NCBI GenBank assembly: GCA_039794045.1 | Contig: JBAMLY010000009.1 | Span: 38,609-102,608, forward strand | Length of the DNA stretch: 64,000 bases | Source of the DNA: Candidatus Micrarchaeia archaeon | GTDB lineage: Archaea > Micrarchaeota > Micrarchaeia > Norongarragalinales > UBA8480 | Direction: 5' to 3' | Part shown: one piece after another, positions 10,528 to 40,801 of the stretch | Layout of the letters: each line of letters begins with the position of its first letter | How positions within the stretch are numbered: the stretch's first letter is position 1 | Translations under genes and position numbers: made by a program | Notes under the pieces: generated by a model | The model's input: only the letters and a program-made list of their open reading frames with translations | Database searches by the model: none | What the model was told of the DNA's origin: nothing

Positions 10528-10701
10528 CGCGTCCCACCCTCAAACAAGTAAAAAAATGCGGCTGCCGGGATTTTCAGACGGAAAAGCCTTTGCGGCCTTT
10601 CTTTTTCCGATGAACCCCTTCTCTTCCAGAAAAGGAGTTCTTTTGAACCCGGGTCTCCAGATTGGCAATCTGACGTCCTACCAGGCTAGACTACAACCGC
10701 T

Positions 10702-12381
10702 TCAAAAATCGGAGTAAGGACGGCTTCGCTTCAGCACTAGTATTACTGCTACCACAATTAAAAGAATTGCGACTGCCAACCCCGCCAGCATTCGAGCGTC
10801 GACGCCTGCAACCACAAGCGATTCAGTGGATGGCGTTGAAGAAGCAACTGGAGACTGCGCGGGAGGAATGCTGGCTTCCTGTCCAGAGAAAGACAAGACA
10901 AACTTTTGCGAGAAGGAACGCTTGCCGAAAACAACCCTGATTTCTCCCTCGTGGTTTCCAGGCGCGGGCAAAGGAAAAGCAAACTCGAACCTCTTCTTTT
11001 CTCCCACCTTCAAAGAAAAAGACTGCCTCTCCTCTGCTCCGTCCAGAAAAGCGTAAACGCTCGCCCCGCTTATGTCCTCGCCGCCCTTGTTACGCAACAC
11101 GCACACTAACTTAAAAGAGTCCCCAGAAGAAAGATAAGAGAGCTCGCTTACTTCCACGCCCTCGGCCAACGAAACAGCGCCGCCCTTGCGAGCCGTAATG
11201 TTGGCTTGCGCTTGCGCGCCCAAGCTCGTCACGGAAACAGGGAAAGTGTAAACATAGTTTTCAGCAAGCGAGGAAGGCACTACCACGGTCCAGTTCACTT
11301 CAGTTTCCTCCCCAGCCCGCAAGAACAAGAGCCTGTCCTTCTCGTCGACCACCTTCATTTCAACTGGTGTGGTGGGAACAGAGAGCGACAAAGGCACAGC
11401 CAAGTCTCGTGCGGCGCGCACGCGCGCGGAAACGACTGCAATCGAGCCCTCGCCAAGCGCCTGGGAAGGCACTGAAACGTTGAGGGAAACCAGGCCAGGA
11501 AAACCTTGCTTGGAAGCAAAAGAAAGCGAAGCGCCGCGCTCTATGCGGGCGAGAGACAAGTCCAAAGACCTTCCCTTGCCAGTGATTTCTTCGCGGACTC
11601 CGTCTTGGTCGACTGCCTGCGCGAACTTCAAGTGAGTAGCGTCGAGAACCACTCCCTCGCCGTAAGTCGCGTCGAATGGAACCCACTTGCCGTCTATTGC
11701 TGCCTCAACCCAAGCGTGCGGACCCCAGTCGTCGCCAGTGAAGACAAAGCCTGCCACGAAGCGCGCGGGAATCCCTTGCGAGCGAAGCATCGCAATCAGC
11801 AAGTGAGAGTATTCGCTGCACTTTCCTTTTCTCTGCTCGAAGGCCTCCTGCGACGTTAAGAGGTTGTCCCTGTAAAAACCGAGCCCCTCGTACTCTAACG
11901 CGTTGTGAACCCATTCAGTCAAGCGCGTTGCTTTCACCCAATCACTTGCGTTCCCTGCCACTTCCGCTGCCTTGGAACGAATTTCCGGGGAAATTAGTAC
12001 GTACTCGCTTTCACCCAAGTAACGCTGCGCCTCGGAAGCGCTAGCTTCTTGAAAGCCGCGCGAGTAGTCCACGGAAATGCGAGCATTCAAGTAAACCTGG
12101 CTTGGCTTCGCGCTGGAATCTAACGCGAAAACAATTACGTGGTTGCCGAAAGCGTCTTCACTCGCAGAAAAAGGAGAAAAAGCAAGAATTTCGCGGGCTT
12201 GGTGCGCGTCACTAAAAAAATCGTAGGACTTCAACTGTAAATCGCTCGCCGCCTGCCCCCCTAAGTCCACTGCCCAAGAAAGGCGGGCGTCTACTACAGC
12301 GCTGCCAATCATTTTCGGCGAGAAATCGATTGCGGCCGCCAACCCCGAAAGCAACACTAAGGCGAACACGAAGCGCTTCAT
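10702..12381 (-). CDS. Secreted transglutaminase-like (papain-fold) enzyme with C-terminal TM anchor; start moved to MKRFVF
   Basis: Signal peptide MKRFVFALVLLSGLAAA and a transglutaminase core with Cys (GKCSEYSHLL), His (GPHAWVEA) and Asp. C-terminal TM helix plus KRSRPYSDF tail. The ORF-track start at 12459 would overlap the adjacent tRNA. Confidence 0.75.
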   Translation of the reverse strand: MKRFVFALVLLSGLAAAIDFSPKMIGSAVVDARLSWAVDLGGQAASDLQLKSYDFFSDAHQAREILAFSPFSASEDAFGNHVIVFALDSSAKPSQVYLNARISVDYSRGFQEASASEAQRYLGESEYVLISPEIRSKAAEVAGNASDWVKATRLTEWVHNALEYEGLGFYRDNLLTSQEAFEQRKGKCSEYSHLLIAMLRSQGIPARFVAGFVFTGDDWGPHAWVEAAIDGKWVPFDATYGEGVVLDATHLKFAQAVDQDGVREEITGKGRSLDLSLARIERGASLSFASKQGFPGLVSLNVSVPSQALGEGSIAVVSARVRAARDLAVPLSLSVPTTPVEMKVVDEKDRLLFLRAGEETEVNWTVVVPSSLAENYVYTFPVSVTSLGAQAQANITARKGGAVSLAEGVEVSELSYLSSGDSFKLVCVLRNKGGEDISGASVYAFLDGAEERQSFSLKVGEKKRFEFAFPLPAPGNHEGEIRVVFGKRSFSQKFVLSFSGQEASIPPAQSPVASSTPSTESLVVAGVDARMLAGLAVAILLIVVAVILVLKRSRPYSDF

Positions 12382-12434
12382 GAAATTAGTTTGGCGCTCT
12401 TCAATTAAAAAGAATGCGAAAAAGAAAAAAAGAG

Positions 12435-12542
12435 TGCCGCTGGTGTGATTTGAACACACGACATACCGGTCTTCAGCTTCGTCACCCCCGGCGCTTGACG
12501 CGCCGCGGATTCGGACGCTCTCCCAGTCTGAGCTACAGCGGC
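12435..12542 (-). tRNA. Intron-containing tRNA, probably tRNA-Phe(GAA), with a ~34-nt intron at a non-canonical position
   Basis: Reverse complement: acceptor stem GCCGCTG/CAGCGGC, D-arm GCTC-AGACTGGGA-GAGC, T-arm GTGTG-TTCAAAT-CACAC, discriminator A. An anticodon-loop candidate CTGAAGA lies next to CCGGT. About 34 extra nt (containing the hairpin GGCGCGTCAAGCGCC) sit 5' of the loop, and I could not place exact exon-intron borders by eye. Confidence 0.55.
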
Positions 12543-12602
12543 ATGCAAGAAGTTATTTGGGCAGCCAACCTTTAAAACAATTCTGCGTCTTATTAATTTC
12601 AA

Positions 12603-12798
12603 GGGCCCGTAGTCGATTGGCTAAGACGCCTGTCTTACACAACCTTTTTTGCTATGCAATCACGCTTGGGCGCTCTTGCTGCGCAAAAAGCGTTGACGAA
12701 AAAGCAAGAAGGGTGTAGAAACAGGAGATGCGGAGTTCGATTCGAGCAATCAAAAGCGCGCGTCTCTTCGCTTGCTCGCGAACATCTCCGCGGGCCCA
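12603..12798 (+). tRNA. tRNA-Val(UAC) with two introns (about 80 nt at 37/38 and 43 nt in the T-loop at 58/59)
   Basis: Exon 1: GGGCCCG-TA-GTCG-ATTGGCTA-AGAC-G-CCTGT-CTTACA. Exon 2 (12720-12740): A-ACAGG-AGATG-CGGAG-TTCGA. Exon 3 (12784-12798): AT-CTCCG-CGGGCCC-A. All stems pair perfectly: 7-bp acceptor, D-stem with a G13-A22 mismatch, 5-bp anticodon stem, 5-bp T-stem. Confidence 0.7.
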
Positions 12799-12876
12799 CT
12801 CACGGCGGCGGGGAACCAAGGTTCTCCGTTAAGTCGAGTGCTCGTTTTCTTGCAAGCAGAGAAAGAGTGGTTTAAG

Positions 12877-12998
12877 CGGACCCACTGGGATTCGAACCCA
12901 GGTCAAGAGCTGTCTGCAATCAGTCTGCCGCGAGCGCGGCAGTCATGAGACCGCGATTTCCGCAAGCTCCCATTCTATCCAGGCTGAACTATGGGTCC
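12877..12998 (-). tRNA. tRNA-Arg(GCG) with a 48-nt canonical intron (37/38)
   Basis: Reverse complement: GGACCCA-TA-GTTC-AGCCTGGATA-GAAT-G-GGAGC-TTGCGG[48-nt intron]A-GCTCT-TGAC-CTGGG-TTCGAAT-CCCAG-TGGGTCC-G. Mature length is 74 nt and all stems pair. Confidence 0.8.
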
Positions 12999-13127
12999 TC
13001 GTTTGTTGCGCCGTGCTGGGGGACGGCAATAGTTTTTTGCAGGACAACCTATAAAAACAACTTGTTGCAGAATATTGTCCGCTGCTTTTCGTCGTTCGCG
13101 TTTGAAGCAGTGTTTTGGTGGTCTGCA

Positions 13128-13277
13128 ATGGCTTTTTGCTCGAGTTGTGGTAGGGAAACGAGTGACTACACTAAGTTTCCTTGCCCGAACGCGTCCTGCA
13201 ACGAGGTCGTGGTTAGGTGCAAGCCTTGCCGCGAGAACGAAGTTTCTTACGAGTGCTGCGGCTTTAAAGGTCCTTGA
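13128..13277 (+). CDS. Small Zn-ribbon protein (COG2888-like, translation-associated)
   Basis: 49 aa: MAFCSSCGRE...CPNASCNEVVVRCKPCRENEVSYECCGF with paired CxxC motifs. It is translationally coupled to the downstream gene by an ATGA-type overlap. Confidence 0.5.
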   Translation: MAFCSSCGRETSDYTKFPCPNASCNEVVVRCKPCRENEVSYECCGFKGP

Positions 13278-13705
13278 TTGCGATGACTGGGCGCGTGATG
13301 GCTTTCGGTACTTTTGACGTGCTTCACTTGGGCCACCTCAAGTTTTTTGAGGCGGCTCGGCGGCTGGGAAGCGAGCTCGTCGTCGTGGTGGCGCGCGACT
13401 GGATAGTCGAGAAAGTAAAAGGGCGAAAGCCTTTTTTTTCTGAGGGCGAGCGGCTTGAACTCGTTTCAGCGCTCAAGCCGGTAGACAAGGCCGTGCTCGG
13501 CTGCGAGGGAAACAAGTACGAAGTGATAAAACGCTTCAAGCCAGATGTAGTGGTGTTGGGCTACGACCAAAAAGATGACGCAAGGGTTTTGCGTGCGAAG
13601 CTTGACGAGATGGGCTTGAAGAAGACGAGGGTTGTTCGCTTGAAGCCTTTCGCGACGGGCAAGCACAAGAGTTCGCGAGTGAAAGAGTTTTTGAGGAAGT
13701 GTTGA
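13274..13705 (+). CDS. ribL: FAD synthase RibL (CTP-dependent archaeal FMN adenylyl/cytidylyltransferase)
   Basis: GTFDVLHLGH nucleotidyltransferase motif, and VVVARDWIVEKVKGRKPFFSEGERLELVSALKPVDKAVLG which closely matches archaeal RibL. Length 143 aa. Confidence 0.8.
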   Translation: MIAMTGRVMAFGTFDVLHLGHLKFFEAARRLGSELVVVVARDWIVEKVKGRKPFFSEGERLELVSALKPVDKAVLGCEGNKYEVIKRFKPDVVVLGYDQKDDARVLRAKLDEMGLKKTRVVRLKPFATGKHKSSRVKEFLRKC

Positions 13706-13718
13706 CGTGGTGGTTTGA

Positions 13719-13967
13719 ATGGGTAAAGTTATGACTGTAATGAAGATTTATCCTTGCGAGGGAGCTGACTTGACCAAGTTGCTTGACGCTGTTTACTCGG
13801 TCAAGGGGTGCAATTCTGCCAAGATAGAGGAATTCGTTTTCGGCGCCAAGATTTTGAAGGCTTCCTTTATTTGCGACGACAAAGAAGGAGTGGACTTCGA
13901 GGAAATAGTCAAGAAGATTGAAGGCGTCAGCGAGGTTCAAGTGGACGAAGTCGGCTTGATTAGTTGA
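13719..13967 (+). CDS. ef1b: Translation elongation factor aEF-1 beta
   Basis: 82-aa protein MGKVMTVMKIYP...GVSEVQVDEV, matching archaeal EF-1 beta in length and pattern. Confidence 0.85.
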   Translation: MGKVMTVMKIYPCEGADLTKLLDAVYSVKGCNSAKIEEFVFGAKILKASFICDDKEGVDFEEIVKKIEGVSEVQVDEVGLIS

Positions 13968-14455
13968 TGGCGTGGTTTCTTGCGCGAGACTAGCCTTTTT
14001 ATTCTAGCAGCAGTCGCTTTTATTTCGCGCCAGTGCGTTCCCTTCCAATAGATTTTGCCGCATGCGGTGCACTGCCAGAATTCGCGGTGGCGCTTGAATA
14101 CTCTTGGGAACACGTGGTTTTTCACTGTCTGCTTTGACACTCTCTTTATTTCTCCGCCGCAGGCGGGGCACAGTGAGCGCTTTGAGAGAGGCTTCAACTC
14201 GAGCGCGAATTCTGCTGCGACTTCAGCGAACTGGTTTTCAAGGTTGTTTGACTTAACTAGGAATGCCTTGCAGTAGTCTCTTGCCTTGCGCGCTAGTTCT
14301 TCGTCGCGCGTTAAAAGAATTCGGTTGCTGTTAATTGCTTTGCGTAAAACTTCCTCGTCTTCCGCGTCCTTTCCTGCGTACTCGCAGTCAAAACCGAGGA
14401 TGCGCAGCCACCTGCATAGTTTTCCAAGCATTGAGTCCGCGAAAAACTTTTTCAA
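13937..14455 (-). CDS. Mut7-C/DUF82 domain protein (predicted RNase) with Zn-ribbon
   Basis: MLGKLCRWLRILGFDCEY motif typical of Mut7-C (PF01927), plus CPACGG...CTACG. Convergent 31-nt overlap with ef1b. Confidence 0.7.
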   Translation of the reverse strand: MKKFFADSMLGKLCRWLRILGFDCEYAGKDAEDEEVLRKAINSNRILLTRDEELARKARDYCKAFLVKSNNLENQFAEVAAEFALELKPLSKRSLCPACGGEIKRVSKQTVKNHVFPRVFKRHREFWQCTACGKIYWKGTHWREIKATAARIKRLVSRKKPRHQLIKPTSST

Positions 14456-14576
14456 GTGATTTCGCCTTGCGCAGATACTTCAAGCATTCCTCGCAAGTAT
14501 TGCGTTGTTTGCTGGTTTTTAATTTTGTGCAGCGCCGAAAAAGGGCTTTAAAGCAACGCGGACTCAATTTATTGCA

Positions 14577-17213
14577 ATGATTTCTTCACTGAAGTTGAGG
14601 CACTGGAAGTCGCACGAGAAAACCGAGCTTTCCTTTGGCGCCGGCACTAACTTGATAGTGGGCGCTATGGGGAGCGGCAAGACGAGCTTGATGGACGCGA
14701 TTTGCTTTGCGTTGTACGGCACTTTTCCCGCTCTGCGCAGTCGCAAGATTACGCTGGATGAAGTGGTGATGCTGCGCCCGAGAAAGTATGATTCCGCGGA
14801 AGTTGAACTGCGCTTTCAGGCGGGGGGAAAGACTTTCACGGTTTCGCGGGTGGTAAGGAAGGGTGCTACTGAGGCGTTCTTGCGCGACTCGGACTCTCGC
14901 TTGATTGAAGGCCCTCAAAGCCAGCGAGTTACTGAAGCGGTAGAGGACTTGCTGAAAGTGGACTACGAGTTGTTCACGCGAAGCATTTACGCAGAACAAA
15001 ACCGCATTGACTACTTCATTGCGCTCGGCAAGGGCGAGCGCAAGAAGCAAATAGACGAGTTGCTGGGAATAGACAAGTTCGAGACCGCGCGCGCCACGGC
15101 AGGCGCGGTGGCCAACAAACTGAAGTCGCTTAAGGCCCAGTCGCAGGGCTTGCTTCAAGGAATGGACTTCGAGGGAATGCGAAAGGAAAAAGAATTGCTT
15201 GAAGGCGAGCTTGGCTCGCTGCAATCCCGCGCTGCTGCCGCAAGCGAGGAGCTCGCGCTAGCACAGGAAAAAGCCGGAAAGCAAAAGAAACTCGTTGCAC
15301 AACTGGAGGAAAGCGAGGCGAGGGCGAGCCAACTCGAGAAACGCAAGGCCGCCGCCGAGGCTTCGTTGTCCGAGCTTTCAGCAGAACTGGAACGCAAAAA
15401 AAGGTTTTTTGGGAGGAAAGTCACGCGCGCGGAGTTGGAAGGAAAGAACGCCTTGGAACGCGAGCTCGAAGGACTGCGCAACGCGCGCGCTGAAGCCGCC
15501 GAGCTAGACAAGAAGCTCGAGCGCTTGCGTGGAGAAAAAGAGGCAGTGGAATCTCAGTTAAAGGAATTCTCTTCGTTGAAGTCTTATTCTCTTGAAGGAG
15601 CAAGAGAGCAAGCGCAGAAGCTTTCGCGCGAGGTTGAAGTCAAGCGTGCTGAGGCGAGAAGGCTCTCGGAAGCAATTGCTTCCTTGAAGGCGGATGGTGC
15701 TTCTGCGGCGAGAGAGGCTGCGGAGGCGCGAGAGAAGGGAGGACAGCTTCGCGTACTCGTTTCAGCTTTCCAGGAAAAGCTTTCTGCTTTGGGTGGCTTG
15801 AATGCCGTGCGAGAAAAGCAAGTCCGTTCAGAGGAGAGGCTGGCTGGCGTTCGCAGGGAGTTAGAGGAAGCCCTTGTTTCAGTTGAAGTTGCTTCAACTG
15901 CTCTCGGCTCGCTTAAGGCGGGAACGGGAGAGTGTCCGGTGTGTGGTTCTCCTTTGTCGGACGAAAAAGTGGTTTCACTTAAGCGCGAGAAGGAGGGCGC
16001 GCGGGCTGCCGCTGTAGAAAAAGCGCGTCGTTTGCAGGAAGAACGCGCTTTGCTTGAAGGAGAGCTCGCCGAATTAAAGCAGGTTTTAGCTGATGCTGCC
16101 GCGTTCGAGGAAAAGAAAGTCGAGCTCGCGGTACTCGAAGAACGCGTGAAAGCCCTTGAAGCTAAGGCAAGGAAGGCAGCCGGCGAGGCGGCGCAGTTGG
16201 CGGAAGCCGCGAATGCTTTAAACGCAGAAATTGCGTCGCTAGAGGAAAGCTTGTCGCGCGCTCGCGCCGAGAAAGACAAGCTAGAATTGAAGGAAAGGCT
16301 TTCCGCCCAGCTTTCTCGTTTGACAGCAGAAGAACAGCGCTTGCAGGCTCTAGCGGCAGCGTGCGCCAAGCGTTTTTCTGAGCAAAAAATTCTTGAAACA
16401 GAGAAAAAGATTGAAGAGCTTCGTGCGGCAGAAGAGTTTTTCCGCGTTGAAGACGCTGTTGCAGAAGCGCGAAAGCGGTTGGAGGATGCAACGCGAGAGC
16501 TTTCCGTTCTCGGTTTTGAAGCGGCGCAGCTTGCTAGCGCGCGCCAGGTGTTGTCCTCGCTTGAAGCGCAGGCAAGCGTTCTTCGCGCTGAGTCGCGTTC
16601 GCTTGCCGAGTTGTTGAAAGAGAAGAGGAAGAGGCTTGACTCGGTTCAGTCGCGTCTTTCACTCCTTGAACAGCGCAGGAATGAAATCGCTTTGCTTTCT
16701 TCGCTTGTAGAAGAACTTTCTTGTTTCCAGGAAGCGCTCGTGCAGACGCAGGCGGAGTTGAGGCAGGAGCTCGTGGCCGCTGTCAACGAGGCAATGTCTT
16801 CTCTGTGGCGCTCGCTTTACCCTTACGGCGACTATTCTTCGTTGATGTTGGAGTGCAGCGAGGACGACTATTCTTTGAAGTTGCAGGCTTCGAGTGGCGA
16901 GTGGGTTGGAATTGAAGAGGCTTCAGGGGGGGAAAAGAGTTGCGCTTCGCTGGCGTTGCGCGTGGCGTTCGCGATGGTGCTGACGCCTAATTTGAGTTGG
17001 CTGGTTTTGGACGAGCCAACACACAACCTTGACTCGCAGGCGGTGAGCTTGCTCGTGAGCGTCTTGCACGACGAGATTCCTAAGATAGTGCAACAGACTT
17101 TCATAATAACGCACGACGAGGCGTTGAAGGAGGGGGCGAGCGCAAAGGTTTACCGCGTCGAGCGCGACAAGGAGCGGGGAGACGCCAGCGTCGTGGAAGA
17201 GCTCTTTGTTTGA
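14577..17213 (+). CDS. rad50: Rad50 DNA double-strand break repair ATPase
   Basis: Walker A GAMGSGKTS, long coiled coils, zinc-hook CPVCGS in the middle, signature SGGEKSCASLA and Walker B LVLDEPTHNLD. Length 878 aa. Confidence 0.85.
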   Translation: MISSLKLRHWKSHEKTELSFGAGTNLIVGAMGSGKTSLMDAICFALYGTFPALRSRKITLDEVVMLRPRKYDSAEVELRFQAGGKTFTVSRVVRKGATEAFLRDSDSRLIEGPQSQRVTEAVEDLLKVDYELFTRSIYAEQNRIDYFIALGKGERKKQIDELLGIDKFETARATAGAVANKLKSLKAQSQGLLQGMDFEGMRKEKELLEGELGSLQSRAAAASEELALAQEKAGKQKKLVAQLEESEARASQLEKRKAAAEASLSELSAELERKKRFFGRKVTRAELEGKNALERELEGLRNARAEAAELDKKLERLRGEKEAVESQLKEFSSLKSYSLEGAREQAQKLSREVEVKRAEARRLSEAIASLKADGASAAREAAEAREKGGQLRVLVSAFQEKLSALGGLNAVREKQVRSEERLAGVRRELEEALVSVEVASTALGSLKAGTGECPVCGSPLSDEKVVSLKREKEGARAAAVEKARRLQEERALLEGELAELKQVLADAAAFEEKKVELAVLEERVKALEAKARKAAGEAAQLAEAANALNAEIASLEESLSRARAEKDKLELKERLSAQLSRLTAEEQRLQALAAACAKRFSEQKILETEKKIEELRAAEEFFRVEDAVAEARKRLEDATRELSVLGFEAAQLASARQVLSSLEAQASVLRAESRSLAELLKEKRKRLDSVQSRLSLLEQRRNEIALLSSLVEELSCFQEALVQTQAELRQELVAAVNEAMSSLWRSLYPYGDYSSLMLECSEDDYSLKLQASSGEWVGIEEASGGEKSCASLALRVAFAMVLTPNLSWLVLDEPTHNLDSQAVSLLVSVLHDEIPKIVQQTFIITHDEALKEGASAKVYRVERDKERGDASVVEELFV

Positions 17214-17215
17214 AG

Positions 17216-18658
17216 TCAGGCTGGTTGTCTGGAAAGCCACCAGTCGCGGCGGAACACGAATTTTTCGAGGAAGGGAAGCGCCTCTTCTTCGAAGGCTTTG
17301 GAGCGAGTTATCTCGTCGCCTTCAAAAATTCTTGCTTTGCTTACTGGTTTGAGGAAGTGGGAGGCAATGCCGTTCGCCTTGGGTTGCGAGACTATCTTTT
17401 TTAGTGCGTCGCGCGCGTTAGTGGTCTCGCGTTTTTTTTCGGCTGCGAGGCTTCCTCCTTCCACGTAGGGGCCGCGCGCCCACTCGCTTGGCTTGTGTGA
17501 GGCCAAGAAGTTTTCGCATGCTTTCTCGTCGGTTACGGGGGGTCCACGTACTCTCTTGAGGGGCGCGAGGCAACTCGTTTCCAGTTCGAAGAGCATGAAG
17601 CAGTTCTTACTGGAGGAAAAAGAGGTGAAGTCGTAGATGTTGAAGTCGACGCGCTCGAGTTGGCGTGCTATGGCGGCGGCGCTCTTGCGCAGTTGGGGCG
17701 TGAGCACGTCGGCTACGATGCCTGTTGGCTTGCTTGTTTGGACGAGGAAGAGCGAGTGTCCTCTTGCTGTAATGGCTTTTGCTATTCTTGTAGCGTCAGG
17801 TTTTTTTGGCTCGTGGAAAAAGAATTCGAGTGAGGGACGGCGCCAGAATGCGCGGCACAGCGTAATGAATTTGGAGAGGTTGGTTGCGTTGACGGCCGCC
17901 GCCGCGTTCCTGTTGTAGTCGATGGCGTCCACGAGAATTAACGGCGAGTCGGAAAATTTTTTGGTGAGGGCTTGCCGTCCCGCTTCTCCTTGGTATGCTC
18001 CCTCTAAGTCTATTATTACTGGGGGCTTCCAGTCTTTGGCTGCTTCAACGAGTCCAGCGAGAGAGCGGTAGTTCAAAATCATTTGCTCGCATACGAGTCC
18101 ACTGAATCCTTCTACTTCTATTTCTGCGCCGTATATTCCGTTGGCTTTCAAGAGTTTTTTTAGGACGCGCACGTCCCTCCGCTGGCGGGGGGAAAGCTTT
18201 TCCTGCAAGTACTTCATGTGGAGGGGCGAGCGGTCTACGGCGCTCTTGATTTTTTGTTGTGGTTTTATTTTAAAGCAAGGGATTACTTCTACTTCGTAGC
18301 CTGAAACGTTGGCGCGAAGGTAAGGGTGTTCAGCGTAATGCATTTCCCATTTCGCTTTCACTGCAGACTTCGTAGCGGAAATGGTTTTTCTTATTATGTA
18401 TTCGCGGTCGCGCGAGACTGGAAAGGCGACGAACAAGTCAATGTCTCTGTCTCCTGCGAGTCCAGTGTCTCTCGCTGCAGAGCCAACGAAGTTTATTTCC
18501 GCTTCTCTTCCGAGTTTTGCGGCTAGCTTTCTTGAAAGCGTTGCAGCAAACTTTTTTTCTGCAGCGGCTTCTGCCGGCGAGGGGGAAACTTTTCGTGAAA
18601 CAATTTCCGCTATTTTTTCTATTGCTTTATGAGTCTCTTCCGTGTCGCTGGATTCCAT
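17216..18658 (-). CDS. cca: CCA-adding tRNA nucleotidyltransferase (archaeal class I)
   Basis: GSAARDTGLAGDRDIDLFVAFP catalytic motif. Length 480 aa. Confidence 0.85.
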   Translation of the reverse strand: MESSDTEETHKAIEKIAEIVSRKVSPSPAEAAAEKKFAATLSRKLAAKLGREAEINFVGSAARDTGLAGDRDIDLFVAFPVSRDREYIIRKTISATKSAVKAKWEMHYAEHPYLRANVSGYEVEVIPCFKIKPQQKIKSAVDRSPLHMKYLQEKLSPRQRRDVRVLKKLLKANGIYGAEIEVEGFSGLVCEQMILNYRSLAGLVEAAKDWKPPVIIDLEGAYQGEAGRQALTKKFSDSPLILVDAIDYNRNAAAAVNATNLSKFITLCRAFWRRPSLEFFFHEPKKPDATRIAKAITARGHSLFLVQTSKPTGIVADVLTPQLRKSAAAIARQLERVDFNIYDFTSFSSSKNCFMLFELETSCLAPLKRVRGPPVTDEKACENFLASHKPSEWARGPYVEGGSLAAEKKRETTNARDALKKIVSQPKANGIASHFLKPVSKARIFEGDEITRSKAFEEEALPFLEKFVFRRDWWLSRQPA

Positions 18659-18754
18659 GCTTTCTTGAACGCTTGCCGTCTTTAAAACTTGTTTCCTTTT
18701 GATTGCGTTGCTAGCCCAGGCAAGGTTTTAATTGAAGTCCTTCCTTTTAAGCGC

Positions 18755-20164
18755 ATGGCAAAAATTCGCGTGGGCTATCCGTTTCCAGAGTACGTGGTTG
18801 ACGAGCCAGTGCTAGGCAGGGAAGCAAAGCGCTTGCTGGAAAAATTTGTTGGCTTGGCGCAACGCAGGGTTTCAGTGAAAGAGTTTTGCGAGGAATTTGG
18901 CTTGGATGAAGGAGAAGCTGAAGAGTTCCTCAAGAGCTTGGATGTTTCTTCTTTCGGGAAGCCGTTGCCGCGCCAAGAAATGGAGGAAGTTGTCGCGAGC
19001 GCACGCAAAGTAGTTGCTGGGCTATCGGAAGCTGAAACGATTGCGAGGGGCGTGGCGCGCTCTCTCTACGGTTTCAAGGTAGTGCAGCCGTTGTTCGAGG
19101 ACGACGACTTGGAAGAAATAATGGTTAATGGTTTTTCTTCGCCTGTAATCGTGGCACATCGAAAGCATGGTTTATGCAAGACTAACTTGCGGTTCAAGAA
19201 CGAGAGAGAGTATGGGGACTTCTTGGTGCAGGTTTGCGGTGGCTCGGCTGGCGCCGCGTGCGATGTCCGCCTCCCGGATGGAAGCCGTGCTAACGTGGTT
19301 TTCCCGCCTGCGGCAAGCGAAGCAGCGGTTACCGTGCGCAAGTTCCGCCGCCAGCGTTTGAGCTTCGTTGAACTCGTAGAGGAAGGCGTTTTTTCTTCTC
19401 ACTTGGCGGCGTTCTTGTGGCTCTGCATTGAGGGAATGAGGGTTAGGCCGTTGAATGTCCTTTTCGCTGGCGGTACTGCCTCGGGCAAGACTTCTTCTCT
19501 TGACGCATTTTCTTGCTTTATTCCCCCGCACGAGCGAATTATAAGCATTGAGGACACGCGAGAGCTTTCCCTGCCAGGCAAGGAGAACTGGGTTGCGTTG
19601 GAGAAGACTGAAGAACTTGACTTGAACGCCTTGCTGCGCAACTCGCTGAGAATGCGTCCCGACAGGATAATCGTGGGCGAGGTGAGGGGCGCGGAAGCTG
19701 AAACGCTTTTCACGGCAATGAACATTGGGCAGAATGGAGTGCTTGGAACTCTTCACGCTAACAGCGACCGCGATGCCATCCAGCGCTTGGAGGCCGCGCC
19801 AATGAACGTCCCCCGTGACTTGATTCCGTTGCTTGACGTGGTAGTAGTTCAGCACAGGGTTTATGATGGAGGCGAGTTGAAGCGGCGCGTTACGCAAGTG
19901 AGCGAGGTTTCCCGCATTGAGGACAAGATTGCTTTGAATGAAGTGTTCAAGTGGGACGCGGGAAAGGAGAGCGTGGTGCGCACGCAGCAGACGAGCGAGT
20001 TAGTTGAAAAGATTGCTTTGCTGTCCGGCAACCCGATAAGTGCCGTTAACGCCGAGTTAGACCGCCGCCGTGAAATAGTTGACTTCTTGGTTGAAAAAAA
20101 GGTAAAATCGCAGGAGGACGTCACCGAGTTCATGAAAAAGTATTACGCTGAAAGCCTGCCTTGA
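18755..20164 (+). CDS. Type II/IV secretion-family ATPase (FlaI/PilB/TadA-like), orphan paralog; start moved to MAKIRVGY
   Basis: Walker A FAGGTASGKTS, motifs RPDRIIVGEVRG and GTLHANS. Paralogous to the ATPase at 38089. No neighbouring pilin or PilC genes. Confidence 0.8.
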   Translation: MAKIRVGYPFPEYVVDEPVLGREAKRLLEKFVGLAQRRVSVKEFCEEFGLDEGEAEEFLKSLDVSSFGKPLPRQEMEEVVASARKVVAGLSEAETIARGVARSLYGFKVVQPLFEDDDLEEIMVNGFSSPVIVAHRKHGLCKTNLRFKNEREYGDFLVQVCGGSAGAACDVRLPDGSRANVVFPPAASEAAVTVRKFRRQRLSFVELVEEGVFSSHLAAFLWLCIEGMRVRPLNVLFAGGTASGKTSSLDAFSCFIPPHERIISIEDTRELSLPGKENWVALEKTEELDLNALLRNSLRMRPDRIIVGEVRGAEAETLFTAMNIGQNGVLGTLHANSDRDAIQRLEAAPMNVPRDLIPLLDVVVVQHRVYDGGELKRRVTQVSEVSRIEDKIALNEVFKWDAGKESVVRTQQTSELVEKIALLSGNPISAVNAELDRRREIVDFLVEKKVKSQEDVTEFMKKYYAESLP

Positions 20165-20203
20165 CTTTTTAGAGTAAGACGTGGAAAGCAGTGTTTAAAG
20201 CGT

Positions 20204-20782
20204 TCAACTCAACTTAAAACAAGCTATTTCTTCGTGTACTGGCCGGTTTGGCGTGAGAGTGCTTTTCTTTAAAGCTACCTTGTCTGCCGTGAACTCAGCG
20301 AGCTCTTTTTCCGCGTATTCTTTTTGGAGGGCGCGCAGTAGCGCAAGGTTTTCTCTTCCCTTCACCCGGCATATTGTGACGTGCGCCGTGAAGTTTTTTT
20401 CTTTGCCTTGCACGCCCACGGCTTTGGCTATGGCTTGCCTTAACTCGTTCAAGCCACTTCCTTGCACGCCAGTCCAGAAGACGTTGATGCGTTGCTCGCT
20501 CGGAAAAAAGCCGGCGCCCTTTAGCTTTAGCGCGAGTGGTTTCATTCCCTGTAGTGCCCCCCTTAGTTTGGCTGCCGTCTCTGCTGCCTTGCTTTCAGTG
20601 ATTTCGCCGAGGAAGGCGAGCGTGACGTGCCATTCTTCCGGTGAAGTGAAGGTAGCGTGCAAGCCTAGTGCCTTCGCCTTGGCGGAAAGCTCGCCGATTT
20701 TTTGTTTTGCCTCGGCTGGAATTTCAAGTGAAACAAAGCAACGCAAGCCAATCACAAGTTTTTTTAATTTCGTTTCATTCAT
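20204..20782 (-). CDS. thpR: RNA 2',3'-cyclic phosphodiesterase / 2'-5' RNA ligase (LigT/ThpR, 2H family)
   Basis: Two HxT/S motifs (HVTLAFLG and HVTICRV). Length 192 aa. Confidence 0.8.
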   Translation of the reverse strand: MNETKLKKLVIGLRCFVSLEIPAEAKQKIGELSAKAKALGLHATFTSPEEWHVTLAFLGEITESKAAETAAKLRGALQGMKPLALKLKGAGFFPSEQRINVFWTGVQGSGLNELRQAIAKAVGVQGKEKNFTAHVTICRVKGRENLALLRALQKEYAEKELAEFTADKVALKKSTLTPNRPVHEEIACFKLS

Positions 20783-20788
20783 TCAAGC

Positions 20789-21631
20789 ATGAAGAAATTG
20801 TTTCCCGTATTTTTACTGGTTGCGGTATTCGCCTCAGTTGCTTCGGCTGCTCACTTGAAAGTCATAGCTCCCACGGCGCACGAGATTCAATCAGGTGATT
20901 ACGCCCAGCCAGTCGAAATAGGCGTGGTTGGGCCAGGACAAAAAGTAGAGATTTCTATAGAGCGCGGCACTGGGCAGATGAGCAACGACAAGACTACTTT
21001 CGGGCAGGAAGCGATTTGGGACCGGCTTGAAGTAATTCGTTCTTCGCTGCCGAGCGGGTGGGACGCGCGCGACAGCCTCGTTTACGAGACTCCTTTGACT
21101 GCCTTCGTAATAGTCTCTCCTGAAGCTTCTGACGGGGAGTACGTCGTCGAAATGCAGTCAGTTGACGAGTACGAGGGAGTCGCGCCCATCAAGTTCAAAG
21201 CGAAAATCAGGGTGGCGCGCGACGCTTTTTCTTTCTCCATGAATCCATCGAGCGTGATAGCGGGAGTGGGACAGCCCGCCGTTTATTCTTTCAAATTGAA
21301 GAGCAACAGCGACGCTTCTGATGCCTACCAGATTTCAGCGGAAGGGCTCCCCTACAACTGGGGTTTCACTAAAAGCGTTTTCTTGCCACGCCGCGGCGAA
21401 GCGATAGTAGCTTACGAAGTGGTTGGCTCTTCGCAGAAGCAAGTAAGCTTCAACTTCAGGATTCGCTCGCTTTCTAGTTCTTTGATTGAGGGAACGCAGG
21501 AGGCGAGGCTCGTCACTGTTTCTTCGTTGTGGCAGGACATGAAGGCGGCAGCGTCAGGCATTCCCTTGTTTCCAAGCGCCGAGCAACCAATTCACTCGTT
21601 GTTGGGCTTCACAGCAAACTTGTTCCCTTGA
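20789..21631 (+). CDS. Secreted protein of unknown function (signal peptide)
   Basis: N-terminus MKKLFPVFLLVAVFASVASA. A beta-rich 280-aa protein with no recognisable motif. Confidence 0.45.
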   Translation: MKKLFPVFLLVAVFASVASAAHLKVIAPTAHEIQSGDYAQPVEIGVVGPGQKVEISIERGTGQMSNDKTTFGQEAIWDRLEVIRSSLPSGWDARDSLVYETPLTAFVIVSPEASDGEYVVEMQSVDEYEGVAPIKFKAKIRVARDAFSFSMNPSSVIAGVGQPAVYSFKLKSNSDASDAYQISAEGLPYNWGFTKSVFLPRRGEAIVAYEVVGSSQKQVSFNFRIRSLSSSLIEGTQEARLVTVSSLWQDMKAAASGIPLFPSAEQPIHSLLGFTANLFP

Positions 21632-21677
21632 ATGCGCCACAGCACGCCTAATATTCTTTTTCGTTCCCAGAAATTAC

Positions 21678-23273
21678 GTGGCTTCCAGTGCAGCGCAGGC
21701 GAGAATTAATGCAGCGAGAGAAGTAGCGCGAGCCATTGCGGGAATGCGTTCAAAGCCTAGTCCACGCAAGCTGATGGCTTTAAAGCGCGCGGCGTGCAAG
21801 AGACACGGCTTGAGCGAAATGCTTTCAAACGCGGAATTGCTTGAAGCCCTCCCGTCAGCGGTATTGCGAGAAAAAAAACAGTTTTTCAGGACGAGGCAAG
21901 TGCGCTCGCTTTCAGGCGTTTGCGTTGTCGCGATAATGGCGAGGCCTGCTGAGTGCCCGCACGGCAGGTGCGCTTACTGTCCTGGAGGCCCGCAAAACAA
22001 TTCGCCTCAAAGCTATACGGGGCGCGAGCCAGCGGCAATGCGTGCTTCTCAGAACGGCTTCGATTCCTTTGCGCAAGTTAGGGCGAGGCTCGACCAACTG
22101 CGCGCCATTGGCCACGAGCCACAGAAATGCGAGTTGATAGTAATGGGCGGCACTTTCAACGCCCAGCCTCTTGAATACCAACGCGTTTTCTTGAAGCGCG
22201 CCTTTGAAGCATTCAATGAAGGCACGTCGCGTTCTCTTGAAGCCGCGATAAAAGCTAACGAGGGCGCGCGGCACAGGGTGGTGGGACTGACTTTCGAGAC
22301 GCGTCCTGACTGGGCGACTCGCGAGAGGATTTCCAGGCTCGTGGACTGGGGGGCGACGAGGATAGAGTTGGGAGTTCAGACTTTAAGCGACGAGGTTTAC
22401 AAGAAAGTGGAGAGGGGGCACTCGGTTGCCGACGTAGTGGAAGCCACGCAGACTTGCAAGGATGCGCTCCTCAAGGTAGGCTATCACTGGATGCCTGGGC
22501 TTCTCTGCGGCCCTCGCGACGACGAGAGGATGTTCAAGCGCTTGTTTTCTGACTCGCGTTTCAGGCCCGACATGCTGAAAATTTATCCTTGCCTGGTAAT
22601 GCCTGGCACGAAAATGTTTGAGTGGTGGGAGAAAGGAGAATTCGTTCCCTACGACGCTGAAACCGCGGCGAGAGTGGTGGCACGCTTGAAGCGTTTAGTT
22701 CCGCCTTACTGTAGGGTGATGCGCGTAGAGCGAGACATTCCAGTGCAGTTGATTGCTGCGGGCGTCAAGAAAAGCAACTTGCGGCAGCTCGTGCGCAAGG
22801 AAATGCTTGAGCGCGGGTGGGAGTGCAAGTGCATTCGGTGCAGGGAAGTTGGCTTCAAGCAAGCGGCTGGCGCGAAAATTGATTGGAGCGCCGTTGAGTT
22901 GAAGCGCTTTGACTACGAGGCGAGCGGCGGCAAAGAAGTTTTTCTTTCTTTCGAAGAGCCGGGAGCGGATGCGCTGGTTGCCTTCCTGCGCCTGCGATTA
23001 CCTGGCAGGCCTTGGCGCAAAGAATTCCGTGAAGGAGACGCTGGCGTGCGCGAGTTGCACGTCTACGGCGAGCAGTTGCTCGTGGGCGAGAGAAAGGAAG
23101 TGGCAGCGCAGCACAAGCGCTTTGGGCGCCTGCTGTTAGGGGAAGCCGAGCGCATAGCTGGCGAGGAGTGGGGTTCGCGGAAGCTCTTCGTTATAAGCGG
23201 CGTTGGAGTGCGTCCTTACTACAAGCGGTTGGGCTACGCTCAAGACGGTGCTTTCGTCTCCAAAAAACTATAA
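21678..23273 (+). CDS. elp3: Elp3-like radical SAM/GNAT tRNA modification enzyme
   Basis: Radical SAM Cys triad (AECPHGRCAYCPGG) and a C-terminal acetyltransferase region. GTG start. Length 531 aa. Confidence 0.9.
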   Translation: MASSAAQARINAAREVARAIAGMRSKPSPRKLMALKRAACKRHGLSEMLSNAELLEALPSAVLREKKQFFRTRQVRSLSGVCVVAIMARPAECPHGRCAYCPGGPQNNSPQSYTGREPAAMRASQNGFDSFAQVRARLDQLRAIGHEPQKCELIVMGGTFNAQPLEYQRVFLKRAFEAFNEGTSRSLEAAIKANEGARHRVVGLTFETRPDWATRERISRLVDWGATRIELGVQTLSDEVYKKVERGHSVADVVEATQTCKDALLKVGYHWMPGLLCGPRDDERMFKRLFSDSRFRPDMLKIYPCLVMPGTKMFEWWEKGEFVPYDAETAARVVARLKRLVPPYCRVMRVERDIPVQLIAAGVKKSNLRQLVRKEMLERGWECKCIRCREVGFKQAAGAKIDWSAVELKRFDYEASGGKEVFLSFEEPGADALVAFLRLRLPGRPWRKEFREGDAGVRELHVYGEQLLVGERKEVAAQHKRFGRLLLGEAERIAGEEWGSRKLFVISGVGVRPYYKRLGYAQDGAFVSKKL

Positions 23274-23325
23274 TAAGCGCGCGCTCTAAACCGTGTTGGT
23301 GTCTCGCTTGTATTCCGAAAAGATA

Positions 23326-24642: not shown

Positions 24643-24648
24643 TTTGAA

Positions 24649-36525: not shown

Positions 36526-36545
36526 CCACGCAAACCAAATTTTCT

Positions 36546-37670: not shown

Positions 37671-38036
37671 GTGGTTGGAGTGAGCGAGTTCAAGCAAGCA
37701 ATAATAATTCGCTGCGACCTCGGAATGGGGAAAGGAAAAATGGTGGCGCAAGGAAGCCATGCGTCGCTCCTCGCCTTTGAGGAAGCCCTAAAGAAAAACG
37801 AGGAAGCCGCGCGCGCTTGGCAAGCGAGCGGAAGCAAGAAAATAGTTCTGAGGGCTGCAAGCGAAAAAGAACTCGTCGAACTATACGCTAAAGCAAGGAA
37901 GGCAAGACTGCCTGCAGCGCTCGTAGTTGACGCGGGGCACACGCAAATAGAGGCGGGCACGAAGACCGCAGCTGGCATCGGACCAGCAGAAGAAAGCGCG
38001 CTTGACAAGATCACTGGAAAACTCAGGTTGTTATAG
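37671..38036 (+). CDS. pth2: Peptidyl-tRNA hydrolase Pth2 (archaeal type)
   Basis: 121 aa: KQAIIIRCDLGMGKGKMVAQGSHASL...GIGP, characteristic of Pth2. Confidence 0.85.
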   Translation: MVGVSEFKQAIIIRCDLGMGKGKMVAQGSHASLLAFEEALKKNEEAARAWQASGSKKIVLRAASEKELVELYAKARKARLPAALVVDAGHTQIEAGTKTAAGIGPAEESALDKITGKLRLL

Positions 38037-38088
38037 CGCTGCCACAAAGCTTTTTGAACACTCGCCGCATTCTATTTTTGAGCGCAAA

Positions 38089-39645: not shown

Positions 39646-39657
39646 GGCCTTCAGTGA

Positions 39658-40797: not shown

Positions 40798-40801
40798 AAA
40801 A

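What the first reader, a model, noticed from the sequence alone, without database searches (positions are those of the whole stretch)
12435..12998. Cluster of three intron-containing tRNA genes on alternating strands within 560 bp
All three tRNAs are interrupted: tRNA-Arg(GCG) by a 48-nt canonical intron, tRNA-Val(UAC) by two introns, and a putative tRNA-Phe(GAA) by a ~34-nt insertion at a non-canonical position in the anticodon arm. Every six-frame ORF in 12405-13128 is therefore an artefact of reading tRNA or intron sequence. Ubiquitous, multiple and non-canonical tRNA introns are a hallmark of a few archaeal lineages (Thermoproteales and Thermofilum-like Crenarchaeota, Korarchaeota and some other uncultured groups). 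The cluster is thus a lineage marker and it also defines the substrates of the splicing endonuclease.
Basis: seen in the sequence. Interest (0 to 1): 0.6.

Follow-up and report, generated by a model that had tools for sequence, protein, structure and literature searches.

The report
Intron-split tRNA genes in a Micrarchaeia genome

Summary
tRNA-Phe(GAA) at 12542..12435 (-) has a 34-nt intron at 30/31. tRNA-Val(UAC) at 12603..12798 (+) has an 80-nt intron at 38/39 and a 43-nt intron at 59/60. tRNA-Arg(GCG) at 12998..12877 (-) has a 48-nt intron at the canonical 37/38 site. A fourth interrupted gene lies 1.7 kb away: tRNA-Gly(GCC) at 10700..10557 (-), with a 71-nt intron at 59/60. So all four tRNA genes in the 64 kb are split.

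Every junction forms a 3-4-3 bulge-helix-bulge motif. A relative carries intron-less syntenic copies: its Phe equals my in-silico spliced Phe at 74/74 bases and its Val at 71/73.

The lineage guess was off. The source is a Candidatus Micrarchaeia MAG (DPANN), not Thermoproteales or Korarchaeota. Heavy tRNA gene disruption and a broad-specificity three-unit (epsilon2) splicing endonuclease are already published for this phylum (ARMAN-2).

One thing goes beyond the precedents I found. Syntenic orthologues carry introns at different positions, and the window's Gly T-loop intron is homologous to a relative's Gly anticodon-loop intron.

Verdict: a real feature and a new member of a known kind. Splicing itself and the enzyme in this genome are inferred, not shown.

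The parts
12435..12542 (-). tRNA-Phe(GAA) gene, 108 nt, mature 74 nt. 5' exon 12542..12512, intron 12511..12478 (34 nt, between positions 30 and 31 in the anticodon stem), 3' exon 12477..12435. No encoded CCA; followed by a T7 run.
   Evidence: Rfam 44.4 bits. ARAGORN on the spliced sequence. BHB helices H1/H2/H3 = 2/4/4 bp. The spliced sequence is 74/74 identical to the intron-less L086 Phe and to the spliced L087 Phe. The same 30/31 intron occurs in L087 and L089 with compensatory changes in helix H3.
12603..12798 (+). tRNA-Val(UAC) gene, 196 nt, mature 73 nt. Exon 1 12603-12640, intron 1 12641-12720 (80 nt, 38/39), exon 2 12721-12741, intron 2 12742-12784 (43 nt, 59/60 in the T-loop), exon 3 12785-12798. 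No encoded CCA.
   Evidence: Not detected unspliced. ARAGORN finds Val(tac) once the introns are removed. Intron 2 BHB is 7/4/7, and the unconstrained minimum-energy fold reproduces it. Intron 1 has central helix UUAC/GUAG and a 12-bp H3 but no contiguous H1. Intron-less L086 Val is 71/73 identical and has the loop CUUACAC, which fixes C38 and excludes 37/38.
12877..12998 (-). tRNA-Arg(GCG) gene, 122 nt, mature 74 nt. 5' exon 12998..12960, intron 12959..12912 (48 nt, canonical 37/38), 3' exon 12911..12877. No encoded CCA.
   Evidence: Rfam 47.8 bits. ARAGORN with intron search. Strict hBHBh' motif, 7/4/5. Syntenic orthologues sit upstream of the aS21-like and RibL-like genes. L003 has identical exons and a 32-nt intron. 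L006 has a 39-nt intron with compensatory changes. L005 has no 37/38 intron but a 56-nt intron at 59/60.
144 nt, mature 73 nt. 5' exon 10700..10642, intron 10641..10571 (71 nt, 59/60 in the T-loop), 3' exon 10570..10557. It starts 1 nt after the stop codon of the transglutaminase-like ORF and is followed by a T7 run.
   Evidence: BHB-removal plus ARAGORN pipeline. BHB 5/4/2. 65/73 identical to the intron-less L086 Gly. Fold z = -5.03.
12571..12577 (.). A/T-rich TATA-like element (TTTAAAA) in the middle of the 60-bp spacer between the divergent Phe and Val genes. It may act as a promoter element for both.
   Evidence: It lies at -32 of Val and -34 of Phe. Promoter function is inferred only. The motif AATTGTTTTAAAGGTTG is also present between Val and Phe in L086.
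17216..18658 (-). Archaeal class I CCA-adding enzyme. It is needed because none of the four tRNA genes encodes a 3' CCA.
   Evidence: Pfam NTP_transf_2, tRNA_NucTransf2 and CAA_C domains on the identical protein. The gene 3' ends were read.

Best explanation
These are the working tRNA-Phe(GAA), tRNA-Val(UAC) and tRNA-Arg(GCG) genes of an uncultured Candidatus Micrarchaeia (DPANN) archaeon, together with tRNA-Gly(GCC) 1.7 kb away. Each is interrupted by archaeal bulge-helix-bulge (BHB) introns.

Shown from the sequence:
- In the primary transcript each exon-intron junction pairs into two 3-nt bulges separated by a 4-bp helix.
- Removing the introns gives standard cloverleafs.

Inferred, not shown:
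- The archaeal splicing endonuclease EndA cuts after the second nucleotide of each bulge.
- An RtcB-type ligase joins the exons, and the intron is released.
- RNase P and RNase Z trim the ends.
- The CCA-adding enzyme encoded 4 kb away adds the missing 3' CCA.

Four of the five introns lie outside the canonical 37/38 site (30/31, 38/39 and 59/60 twice). One 3' site, in Val intron 1, is not a clean 3-nt bulge. The enzyme must therefore have relaxed specificity. The three-unit epsilon2 EndA that is widespread in this phylum is the likely one.

Across Micrarchaeota the introns in these same syntenic genes are evolutionarily labile: absent, retained with covarying helices, or placed elsewhere.
For: tRNA identity:
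- Rfam and ARAGORN on native and spliced sequences.
- There were no other hits among about 77,000 spliced candidates in the window.

Junctions:
- All five window introns, and ten introns in relatives, have 4/4 central-helix pairs in the 3-4-3 register.
- The junctions tested were derived independently, by aligning each pre-tRNA to the mature sequence.

Functional product:
- Intron-less syntenic orthologues in L086 equal the predicted spliced products: Phe 74/74 and Val 71/73, including C38.
- L087 Phe carries two introns yet has a mature sequence identical to the window's.

Covariation:
- Helix H3 of the Phe 30/31 intron is AUCC/GGGU in the window, AUUU/AAAU in L087 and UUCCUCC.../...GGAGGGA in L089.
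- Arg H3 is AA/UU in the window and AC/GU in L006, and L006 also has compensatory exon-stem changes.

Lineage:
- Candidatus Micrarchaeia names on 100%-identical proteins and the NCBI taxonomy.

Enzyme plausibility:
- A query rebuilt from the ARMAN-2 EndA (PDB 4FZ2) finds more than 1,400 homologues. The top 120 are all 368-406 aa and span all three units.
- Most of the named hits are Micrarchaeota, Micrarchaeia or Micrarchaeaceae.
- The four looked up (all labelled Candidatus Micrarchaeia) map to six assemblies with neighbouring GCA_04996xxxx accessions.

Published precedent:
- ARMAN-2 has 56% disrupted tRNA genes, introns at 59/60 and 53/54, and two introns in one gene. Its epsilon2 EndA cleaves relaxed BHB motifs (PMC3239211; PMC5829648).
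Against: - No transcript data, so splicing is not shown.
- No EndA or RtcB gene lies in the 64 kb (Pfam). The EndA of this particular MAG (GCA_049969435.1) was not retrieved.
- The 3' site of Val intron 1 lacks a contiguous outer helix (H1 = 0). Either U31 and C32 face a 3-nt bulge, or a 2-nt bulge faces C32. Efficient cleavage there is assumed.
- The Gly intron's inner helix H3 is only 2 bp.
- Only 64 kb of the genome was seen. Uninterrupted second copies elsewhere cannot be excluded.
Confidence: 0.9

Rival explanations
1. The loci are decaying tRNA pseudogenes disrupted by random insertions, and functional copies lie elsewhere in the genome.
For: Only 64 kb of the genome was examined. Default tRNA finders see nothing here. 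Val intron 1 has an imperfect 3' site.
Against: Random insertions would not create a 3-4-3 BHB at all five junctions. Exons are intact to the base: Phe is 74/74 against an intron-less orthologue. Intron helices covary between lineages. The same genes are interrupted in several Micrarchaeota while their mature sequences stay conserved. Small DPANN genomes usually carry a single copy of each tRNA (general knowledge).
Confidence: 0.03
2. Val intron 1 is a canonical 37/38 intron (12640-12719), which would give the anticodon loop CUUACAA rather than a 38/39 intron.
For: 37/38 is by far the commonest site. ARAGORN accepts both spliced versions. The outer helix at the 38/39 3' site is missing.
Against: At 37/38 only 2 of the 4 central-helix pairs form (hand check of the sequence). 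Accordingly my 4/4-central-helix scan lists 38/39 and further right-shifted registers but not 37/38. The 38/39 register has the central helix UUAC/GUAG followed by a 12-bp H3. Intron-less L086 Val, and L087 Val with an uninterrupted anticodon loop, both read CUUACAC-ACAGG, so position 38 is C. A cut at 39/40 would give the same mature sequence and cannot be excluded from sequence alone.
Confidence: 0.05
3. The window comes from a Thermoproteales, Thermofilum-like or korarchaeal genome. The introns would then be handled by an (alpha-beta)2 or korarchaeal alpha'2 endonuclease.
For: Multiple and non-canonical tRNA introns are best known from those groups (PMC4033280; PMC3239211).
Against: Identical proteins are deposited as Candidatus Micrarchaeia archaeon. 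All named homologues of the flanking transglutaminase-like protein are from Micrarchaeota. The closest RibL-like relatives are from Micrarchaeota and Iainarchaeum. NCBI places the class in Nanobdellati.
Confidence: 0.02
4. The insertions are self-splicing (group I or II) introns or insertion elements rather than protein-spliced BHB introns.
For: Group I introns do occur in archaea and in the tRNA genes of Patescibacteria (PMC6125680; PMC13011429).
Against: The insertions are only 34-80 nt. Rfam finds no intron family at gathering score or at E <= 1. All of them carry BHB motifs.
Confidence: 0.01

Closest known systems
Disrupted tRNA genes of Candidatus Micrarchaeum acidiphilum (ARMAN-2) and its epsilon2 three-unit splicing endonuclease (Fujishima et al. 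2011, PMC3239211; Hirata et al. 2012, PMC3488258; PMC12397907)
   Same: Same phylum. A large fraction of tRNA genes is interrupted. Introns occupy non-canonical sites, including 59/60 in the T-loop, and one gene can hold two introns. Both strict and relaxed BHB motifs occur. Homologues of the epsilon2 EndA are widespread in Micrarchaeota and Micrarchaeia MAGs.
   Different: This is a different, uncultured Micrarchaeia MAG, not the acid-mine Micrarchaeum. The sites seen here include 30/31 and 38/39, which I did not find listed for ARMAN-2 in the text I read. The EndA of this genome was not seen. Here, syntenic orthologues from several relatives show the introns turning over.
Multi-intron tRNA genes and tRNA intron transposition in Thermoproteales (Sugahara et al. 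2008; Fujishima et al. 2010, as cited in PMC4033280 and PMC3239211)
   Same: Multiple and non-canonical BHB introns. Sequence-similar introns occur at different tRNA positions: the window's Gly 59/60 intron matches the L090 Gly 37/38 intron.
   Different: DPANN rather than TACK. The enzyme is presumably epsilon2 with the ARMAN-specific loop, not (alpha-beta)2 with the Crenarchaea-specific loop. The relocation is seen between orthologues of one gene in two genomes, not among many paralogous introns within one genome. No intron paralogues were found in this window.
Canonical archaeal and eukaryal tRNA intron at 37/38 with a strict hBHBh' motif
   Same: The 48-nt Arg(GCG) intron is a textbook case. 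Anticodon-loop nucleotides 32-35 pair with the intron, there are two 3-nt bulges, and the outer helices are 7 and 5 bp.
   Different: The other four introns lie in the anticodon stem, one nucleotide beyond the canonical site, or in the T-loop. Strict alpha4 or alpha'2 enzymes are not expected to process these (PMC5829648).

Membership tests
Archaeal BHB-intron-containing (disrupted) tRNA genes | Removing the insertion(s) restores a standard cloverleaf with a sensible anticodon and conserved T- and D-loop residues. | tested here: met
   ARAGORN calls Phe(gaa), Val(tac), Arg(gcg) and Gly(gcc) on the spliced sequences. The spliced products match intron-less orthologues at 74/74, 71/73 and 65/73, and those orthologues score 62.9-64.1 bits on Rfam tRNA.
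Archaeal BHB-intron-containing (disrupted) tRNA genes | Both splice sites lie in 3-nt bulges separated by a 4-bp helix (hBHBh'), or in a relaxed derivative. | tested here: met
   The central helix is 4/4 paired at all five window junctions. Outer helices H1/H3 are Arg 7/5, Phe 2/4, Val 59/60 7/7 and Gly 5/2, which are strict. Val 38/39 is 0/12, which is relaxed at the 3' site.
Archaeal BHB-intron-containing (disrupted) tRNA genes | The host genome encodes the EndA splicing endonuclease and an RtcB-type ligase. | tested here: inconclusive
   Neither is in the 64-kb window (Pfam). Three-unit EndA homologues occur in many Micrarchaeota MAGs; the four looked up map to six assemblies with neighbouring accession numbers.
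Archaeal BHB-intron-containing (disrupted) tRNA genes | The introns are actually excised, so mature spliced tRNA exists. | not testable with these tools
   No transcript data are available.
ARMAN-2-like Micrarchaeota tRNA sets (highly disrupted, epsilon2 EndA) | The organism belongs to Micrarchaeota (NCBI phylum Microcaldota, class Micrarchaeia). | tested here: met
   Names on the 100%-identical proteins P0001 and P0121. The homologue distribution of the flanking protein. NCBI taxonomy.
ARMAN-2-like Micrarchaeota tRNA sets (highly disrupted, epsilon2 EndA) | A majority of tRNA genes are interrupted, with non-canonical positions and more than one intron per gene. | tested here: met
   4 of 4 genes in the window are interrupted, 4 of 5 introns are non-canonical, and Val has two. 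This covers only 64 kb, so the genome-wide fraction is unknown.
   The closest relatives are Micrarchaeota and Iainarchaeum MAGs.
Transposed or relocated tRNA introns (Thermoproteales type) | Introns at different tRNA positions share significant sequence similarity. | tested here: met
   Window Gly 59/60 intron against L090 Gly 37/38 intron: local score 40 against a dinucleotide-shuffle null of 17.6 +/- 3.2, with 0 of 1000 shuffles reaching it. It is the only significant blastn hit of any window intron in 1.29 Mb of loci (E = 0.005), and it falls inside the orthologous gene's intron.
Transposed or relocated tRNA introns (Thermoproteales type) | There are families of similar introns in several tRNA genes of the same genome. 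| tested here: not met
   The five window introns show no significant similarity to each other. blastn of each against the rest of the window gave only short exact matches of 11-14 nt, E >= 0.008. Only 64 kb was examined.
Self-splicing group I or II introns | A ribozyme core detectable by covariance models, with a length above about 200 nt. | tested here: not met
   The insertions are 34-80 nt, and Rfam finds nothing but tRNA.

The most novel reading that the evidence does not exclude
Micrarchaeia tRNA introns are currently mobile rather than frozen relics. The same intron has moved between the anticodon loop (37/38) and the T-loop (59/60) of the orthologous tRNA-Gly(GCC) gene. Position 59/60 is a recurrent landing site, used by Val and Gly here, by Val and Phe in L087, and by Arg in L005. 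One relative has cleanly lost every intron from the same three syntenic genes. If so, this clade would be a natural series for catching BHB-intron gain, relocation and precise loss in the act, possibly by reverse splicing through EndA and RtcB followed by reverse transcription and recombination. It would extend the 'intron transposition' described for Thermoproteales to DPANN and to a different endonuclease architecture.
Probability: 0.35. Interest if true: 0.6.

Novelty: new member of a known kind. Interest (0 to 1): 0.4.

Why it matters
- Annotation: in 64 kb, default ARAGORN found none of the four tRNA genes, and Rfam at gathering score found one. MAGs of this clade will therefore look tRNA-poor, and completeness or codon-usage inferences will be wrong. 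The literature already notes incomplete tRNA sets in DPANN (PMC5829648).
- Enzymology: the five junctions are concrete natural substrates for the epsilon2-type endonuclease. They comprise a strict 37/38 site, an anticodon-stem site at 30/31, a site shifted to 38/39 with a non-standard 3' bulge, and two T-loop sites.
- Evolution: the syntenic series has five members (window, L086, L087, L089, L090). It shows the same genes with zero, one, two or possibly three introns and with a relocated homologous intron. This is a compact data set for testing how BHB introns are gained, moved and lost.
- None of this overturns current understanding.

Tried and rejected
- Default ARAGORN on the window found 0 genes. 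Rfam at gathering score on the whole window found only Phe. Arg appears only in E-value mode. Val and Gly never appear unspliced.
- ARAGORN's forced anticodon-loop model for Phe (35-nt intron, mispaired stem) was rejected in favour of 30/31. The reasons are the BHB register and the intron-less orthologue.
- Alternative BHB candidates were rejected because they do not give a cloverleaf. These were a 46-nt variant in Arg, a 63-nt 5'-shifted variant in Val intron 1, and 76-nt and 78-nt variants in Val.
- A metagenome scan with a 23-nt Val exon pattern gave 0 hits.
- A metagenome scan for the Gly intron core GGAARAGAARGGGTTCATC gave 115 hits. None extends beyond the seed. Those I inspected look like chance matches, mostly in coding sequence (several read L-E-E-K-G-F-I).
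- A genome-contig scan with a RibL-like alignment found no relative closer than 59% identity. Many hits were CPR bacteria.
- Similarity between the window Gly intron and the L087 Gly 53/54 intron looked suggestive by eye but is not significant (159/1000 shuffles).
- I looked by eye for C/D-box motifs in the Arg and Val introns and saw no convincing C or D boxes. This was not a formal search.
- I could not retrieve EndA from the window's own MAG. The four Micrarchaeia EndA proteins I looked up map to six other assemblies.
- L089 tRNA-Phe has extra insertions downstream of the anticodon, possibly a 13-nt and a 34-nt intron. I could not fit these to BHB motifs and they are left unresolved.
- No EndA, RtcB or other splicing gene lies in the window (Pfam).
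Full report
**1. What is in the sequence**

The Rfam tRNA model matches two of them. It scores 12877-12998(-) at 47.8 bits and 12435-12542(-) at 44.4 bits, against a gathering score of 29. Each match has a large insertion in the anticodon arm. Default ARAGORN finds no tRNA in the whole 64 kb. With intron search it recovers tRNA-Phe(gaa) and tRNA-Arg(gcg) with a 48-nt intron.

The plus-strand gene at 12603-12798 is invisible to both tools. Removing 12742-12784 lets ARAGORN call tRNA-Val(tac) with an 80-nt intron. Removing both insertions gives a clean 73-nt cloverleaf.

**2. Splice sites**

I scanned for the archaeal bulge-helix-bulge (BHB) register. In this motif two 3-nt bulges, each cut after its second nucleotide, are separated by a 4-bp helix. 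Below, H1 is the exon-side outer helix, H2 the central helix and H3 the intron-side outer helix, counted in base pairs.

| Gene | Intron (window coordinates) | Length | Position | H1/H2/H3 |
|---|---|---|---|---|
| Arg | 12959..12912 | 48 nt | 37/38 | 7/4/5 |
| Phe | 12511..12478 | 34 nt | 30/31, in the anticodon stem | 2/4/4 |
| Val, intron 2 | 12742-12784 | 43 nt | 59/60, in the T-loop | 7/4/7 |
| Val, intron 1 | 12641-12720 | 80 nt | 38/39 | 0/4/12 |

- An unconstrained minimum-energy fold reproduces the BHB of Val intron 2.
- Val intron 1 has the central helix UUAC/GUAG and a 12-bp inner helix. This places the cuts after C38 and before A39.
- At its 3' site there is no contiguous outer helix. 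Either U31 and C32 face a 3-nt bulge, or a 2-nt bulge faces C32. This is a relaxed motif.

**3. A fourth gene, and a chance control**

I built a pipeline that removes every BHB-like segment and runs ARAGORN on the product. I applied it to both strands of the whole window. With strict criteria it tested about 9,600 candidates, and with relaxed criteria about 77,000.

tRNAs appeared only at the three known loci and at one new one. The new gene is tRNA-Gly(GCC) at 10700..10557(-), with a 71-nt intron (10641..10571) at 59/60 and BHB helices 5/4/2. So all four tRNA genes in the 64 kb are interrupted. There are five introns, and four of them are non-canonical.

None of the four genes encodes CCA. 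A class I CCA-adding enzyme lies at 17216-18658(-).

**4. Whose genome**

- Proteins 100% identical to window genes are deposited as Candidatus Micrarchaeia archaeon.
- The contig occurs in NCBI assembly GCA_049969435.1 and in JGI metagenome 3300041911.
- The transglutaminase-like protein between tRNA-Gly and tRNA-Phe has named homologues only in Micrarchaeota MAGs.
- NCBI places the class in Nanobdellati (DPANN), phylum Microcaldota.

**5. Independent confirmation from syntenic orthologues**

I fetched the contigs that encode homologues of the flanking proteins. They give the same tRNA genes in the same places. In the table, "n.s." means the gene was not found on the locus held.

| Locus (flanking protein, % identity to window) | Val(UAC) | Phe(GAA) | Gly(GCC) | Arg(GCG) |
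|---|---|---|---|---|
| Window | 38/39 (80 nt) + 59/60 (43 nt) | 30/31 (34 nt) | 59/60 (71 nt) | 37/38 (48 nt) |
| L086 (transglutaminase-like, 53%) | none | none | none | n.s. |
| L087 (transglutaminase-like, 48%) | 59/60 (54 nt) | 30/31 (32 nt) + 59/60 (59 nt) | 53/54 (37 nt) | n.s. |
| L089 (transglutaminase-like, 39%) | n.s. | 30/31 (34 nt) + further unresolved insertions | T-loop intron, position read by eye, not BHB-checked | n.s. |
| L090 (transglutaminase-like, 40%) | n.s. | D-loop (31 nt) | 37/38 (77 nt) | n.s. |
| L003 (RibL-like, 79%) | n.s. | n.s. | n.s. | 37/38 (32 nt) |
| L006 (RibL-like, 53%) | n.s. | n.s. | n.s. | 37/38 (39 nt) |
| L005 (RibL-like, 54%) | n.s. | n.s. | n.s. | 59/60 (56 nt) |

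- The three intron-less L086 genes score 62.9-64.1 bits on Rfam tRNA.
- L086 Phe is 74/74 identical to my spliced window Phe. Its Val is 71/73 identical and reads CUUACAC-ACAGG. That fixes C38 and excludes a 37/38 intron. Its Gly is 65/73 identical.
- L087 Phe has a mature sequence identical to the window's despite carrying two introns.
- L003 Arg has exons identical to the window's.
- L006 Arg shows compensatory changes in the acceptor, anticodon and T stems and in helix H3.
- L005 Arg has an intact anticodon loop.
- L088 duplicates L087.
- All 15 introns (5 window, 10 in relatives) have 4/4 central-helix pairs at junctions that were defined independently by aligning each pre-tRNA to the mature sequence.
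- Helix H3 of the Phe 30/31 intron covaries: AUCC/GGGU, AUUU/AAAU and UUCCUCC.../...GGAGGGA.

**6. Intron relocation**

I compared 17 introns all against all. The strongest pair was not two introns at the same position. It was the window's Gly 59/60 intron against the L090 Gly 37/38 intron. Thirty-three of 35 aligned bases are identical, with two gaps.

The local score is 40 against a dinucleotide-shuffle null of 17.6 +/- 3.2, and 0 of 1000 shuffles reach it. In a blastn search of all five window introns against 1.29 Mb of loci, this is the only significant hit (E = 0.005). It falls inside the intron of the orthologous gene.

So the same intron sits at two different positions in orthologous genes. 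A metagenome scan for the shared core found no further members.

**7. The enzyme (inferred)**

No EndA or RtcB gene is in the window.

I rebuilt most of the ARMAN-2 epsilon2 EndA sequence from the PDB 4FZ2 alignment and searched with it. This found more than 1,400 homologues. The top 120 are all 368-406 aa and cover all three units. Most of those with names are labelled Micrarchaeota, Micrarchaeia, Micrarchaeales or Micrarchaeaceae; a few carry other labels (Marsarchaeota, Nitrososphaerota).

The four I looked up (all labelled Candidatus Micrarchaeia) lie in six assemblies with neighbouring accession numbers (GCA_04996xxxx; the window's is GCA_049969435.1). In each they follow a RadA gene and a TP_methylase gene. 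The window's own MAG was not among them.

Published work shows that this enzyme type cuts relaxed BHB motifs, including a 59/60 substrate. It also shows that ARMAN-2 has 56% disrupted tRNA genes (PMC3239211; PMC5829648; PMC12397907).

**8. Verdict**

The mechanism is the standard archaeal pathway of EndA cleavage, RtcB ligation and CCA addition. The BHB substrates are shown; the processing itself is inferred.

The lineage assignment is corrected to Micrarchaeia. There this phenomenon has a direct published precedent, so the finding is a new member of a known kind.

The part with some novelty is comparative. The same syntenic genes range from intron-less to multiply interrupted, 59/60 recurs as an insertion site, and one intron has been relocated.

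Noticed in passing
It starts 1 nt after the stop codon of the transglutaminase-like ORF (10702-12381). It has no TATA-like motif in the 70 nt upstream, so it may be co-transcribed with that mRNA.
   Followed up: yes
window 10571-10641 vs L090 11710-11785: The window's Gly T-loop intron (59/60) and the anticodon-loop intron (37/38) of the orthologous Gly gene in another Micrarchaeota MAG share a core of about 40 nt (CCUUUUCU..GGAARAGAARGGGUUCAUC..AAAAGAAA). This core looks better conserved than the two Gly exons (60/73 identical). That suggests either recent relocation or selection on the intron core.
   Followed up: partly
L086 1755-1827, 1941-2014, 3946-4019: A relative (Logan run ERR7015355, transglutaminase-like protein 53% identical) has the same syntenic Val, Phe and Gly genes with no introns at all. 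Heavy tRNA disruption is therefore not uniform even within this clade.
   Followed up: yes
window 12571-12577: A single TTTAAAA element lies midway in the 60-bp spacer between the divergent Phe and Val genes, at -34 and -32 respectively. It may be a shared TATA box. The surrounding motif AATTGTTTTAAAGGTTG is conserved in L086.
   Followed up: partly
window 13128-26493 and 31082-32380, 55151-57524, 59870-61837: The neighbourhood is rich in tRNA- and translation-related genes. These are an aS21/HVO_2753-like zinc ribbon, aEF-1beta, a Mut7-C RNase, the CCA-adding enzyme, a LigT/2'-5' RNA ligase-like phosphoesterase (20204-20782), an Elp3-like radical SAM enzyme, GatD/GatE, AspRS, a MiaB-like enzyme, a tRNA_bind domain protein, and ThrRS with the archaeal editing domain. 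A LigT-type enzyme acts on 2',3'-cyclic phosphate ends of the kind EndA cleavage leaves, but no link was tested.
   Followed up: partly
window 12809: The window has C where both public contigs carrying the identical locus (L001 and L002) have T. L002 also has a 1-nt deletion at 13018 and a 1-nt insertion at 13130. All three differences are outside the tRNA genes. The window therefore comes from a third, near-identical assembly or strain.
   Followed up: partly
L089 9832-9986: tRNA-Phe(GAA) of a more distant Micrarchaeota MAG appears to carry three insertions: 34 nt at 30/31, about 13 nt near 39/40, and about 34 nt near 44/45. Only the first fits a BHB motif in my analysis.
   Followed up: partly
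L029 10590-10725 and L032 10528-10667: In two CPR (Patescibacteria) loci fetched through the RibL-like gene, ARAGORN in intron mode calls tRNA-Asn(gtt) with a 59-66-nt insertion just downstream of that gene. A 2026 paper reports group I introns in Patescibacteria tRNA-Asn genes (PMC13011429, abstract only). These insertions are much shorter than group I introns and may be false positives.
   Followed up: no
window 38002-45492: A type IV pilus or archaellum-like cluster. It has a T2SSE ATPase, two T2SSF membrane proteins, three small proteins with class III signal peptides and an A24 prepilin peptidase. A second T2SSE ATPase lies at 18689-20164.
   Followed up: no
window 14577-17213 and 35005-37652: A Rad50/SMC-like ATPase is encoded 18 kb away from a HerA-NurA pair, and no Mre11 was noticed among the ORFs scanned. 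These genes usually form one operon in archaea (from general knowledge).
   Followed up: no
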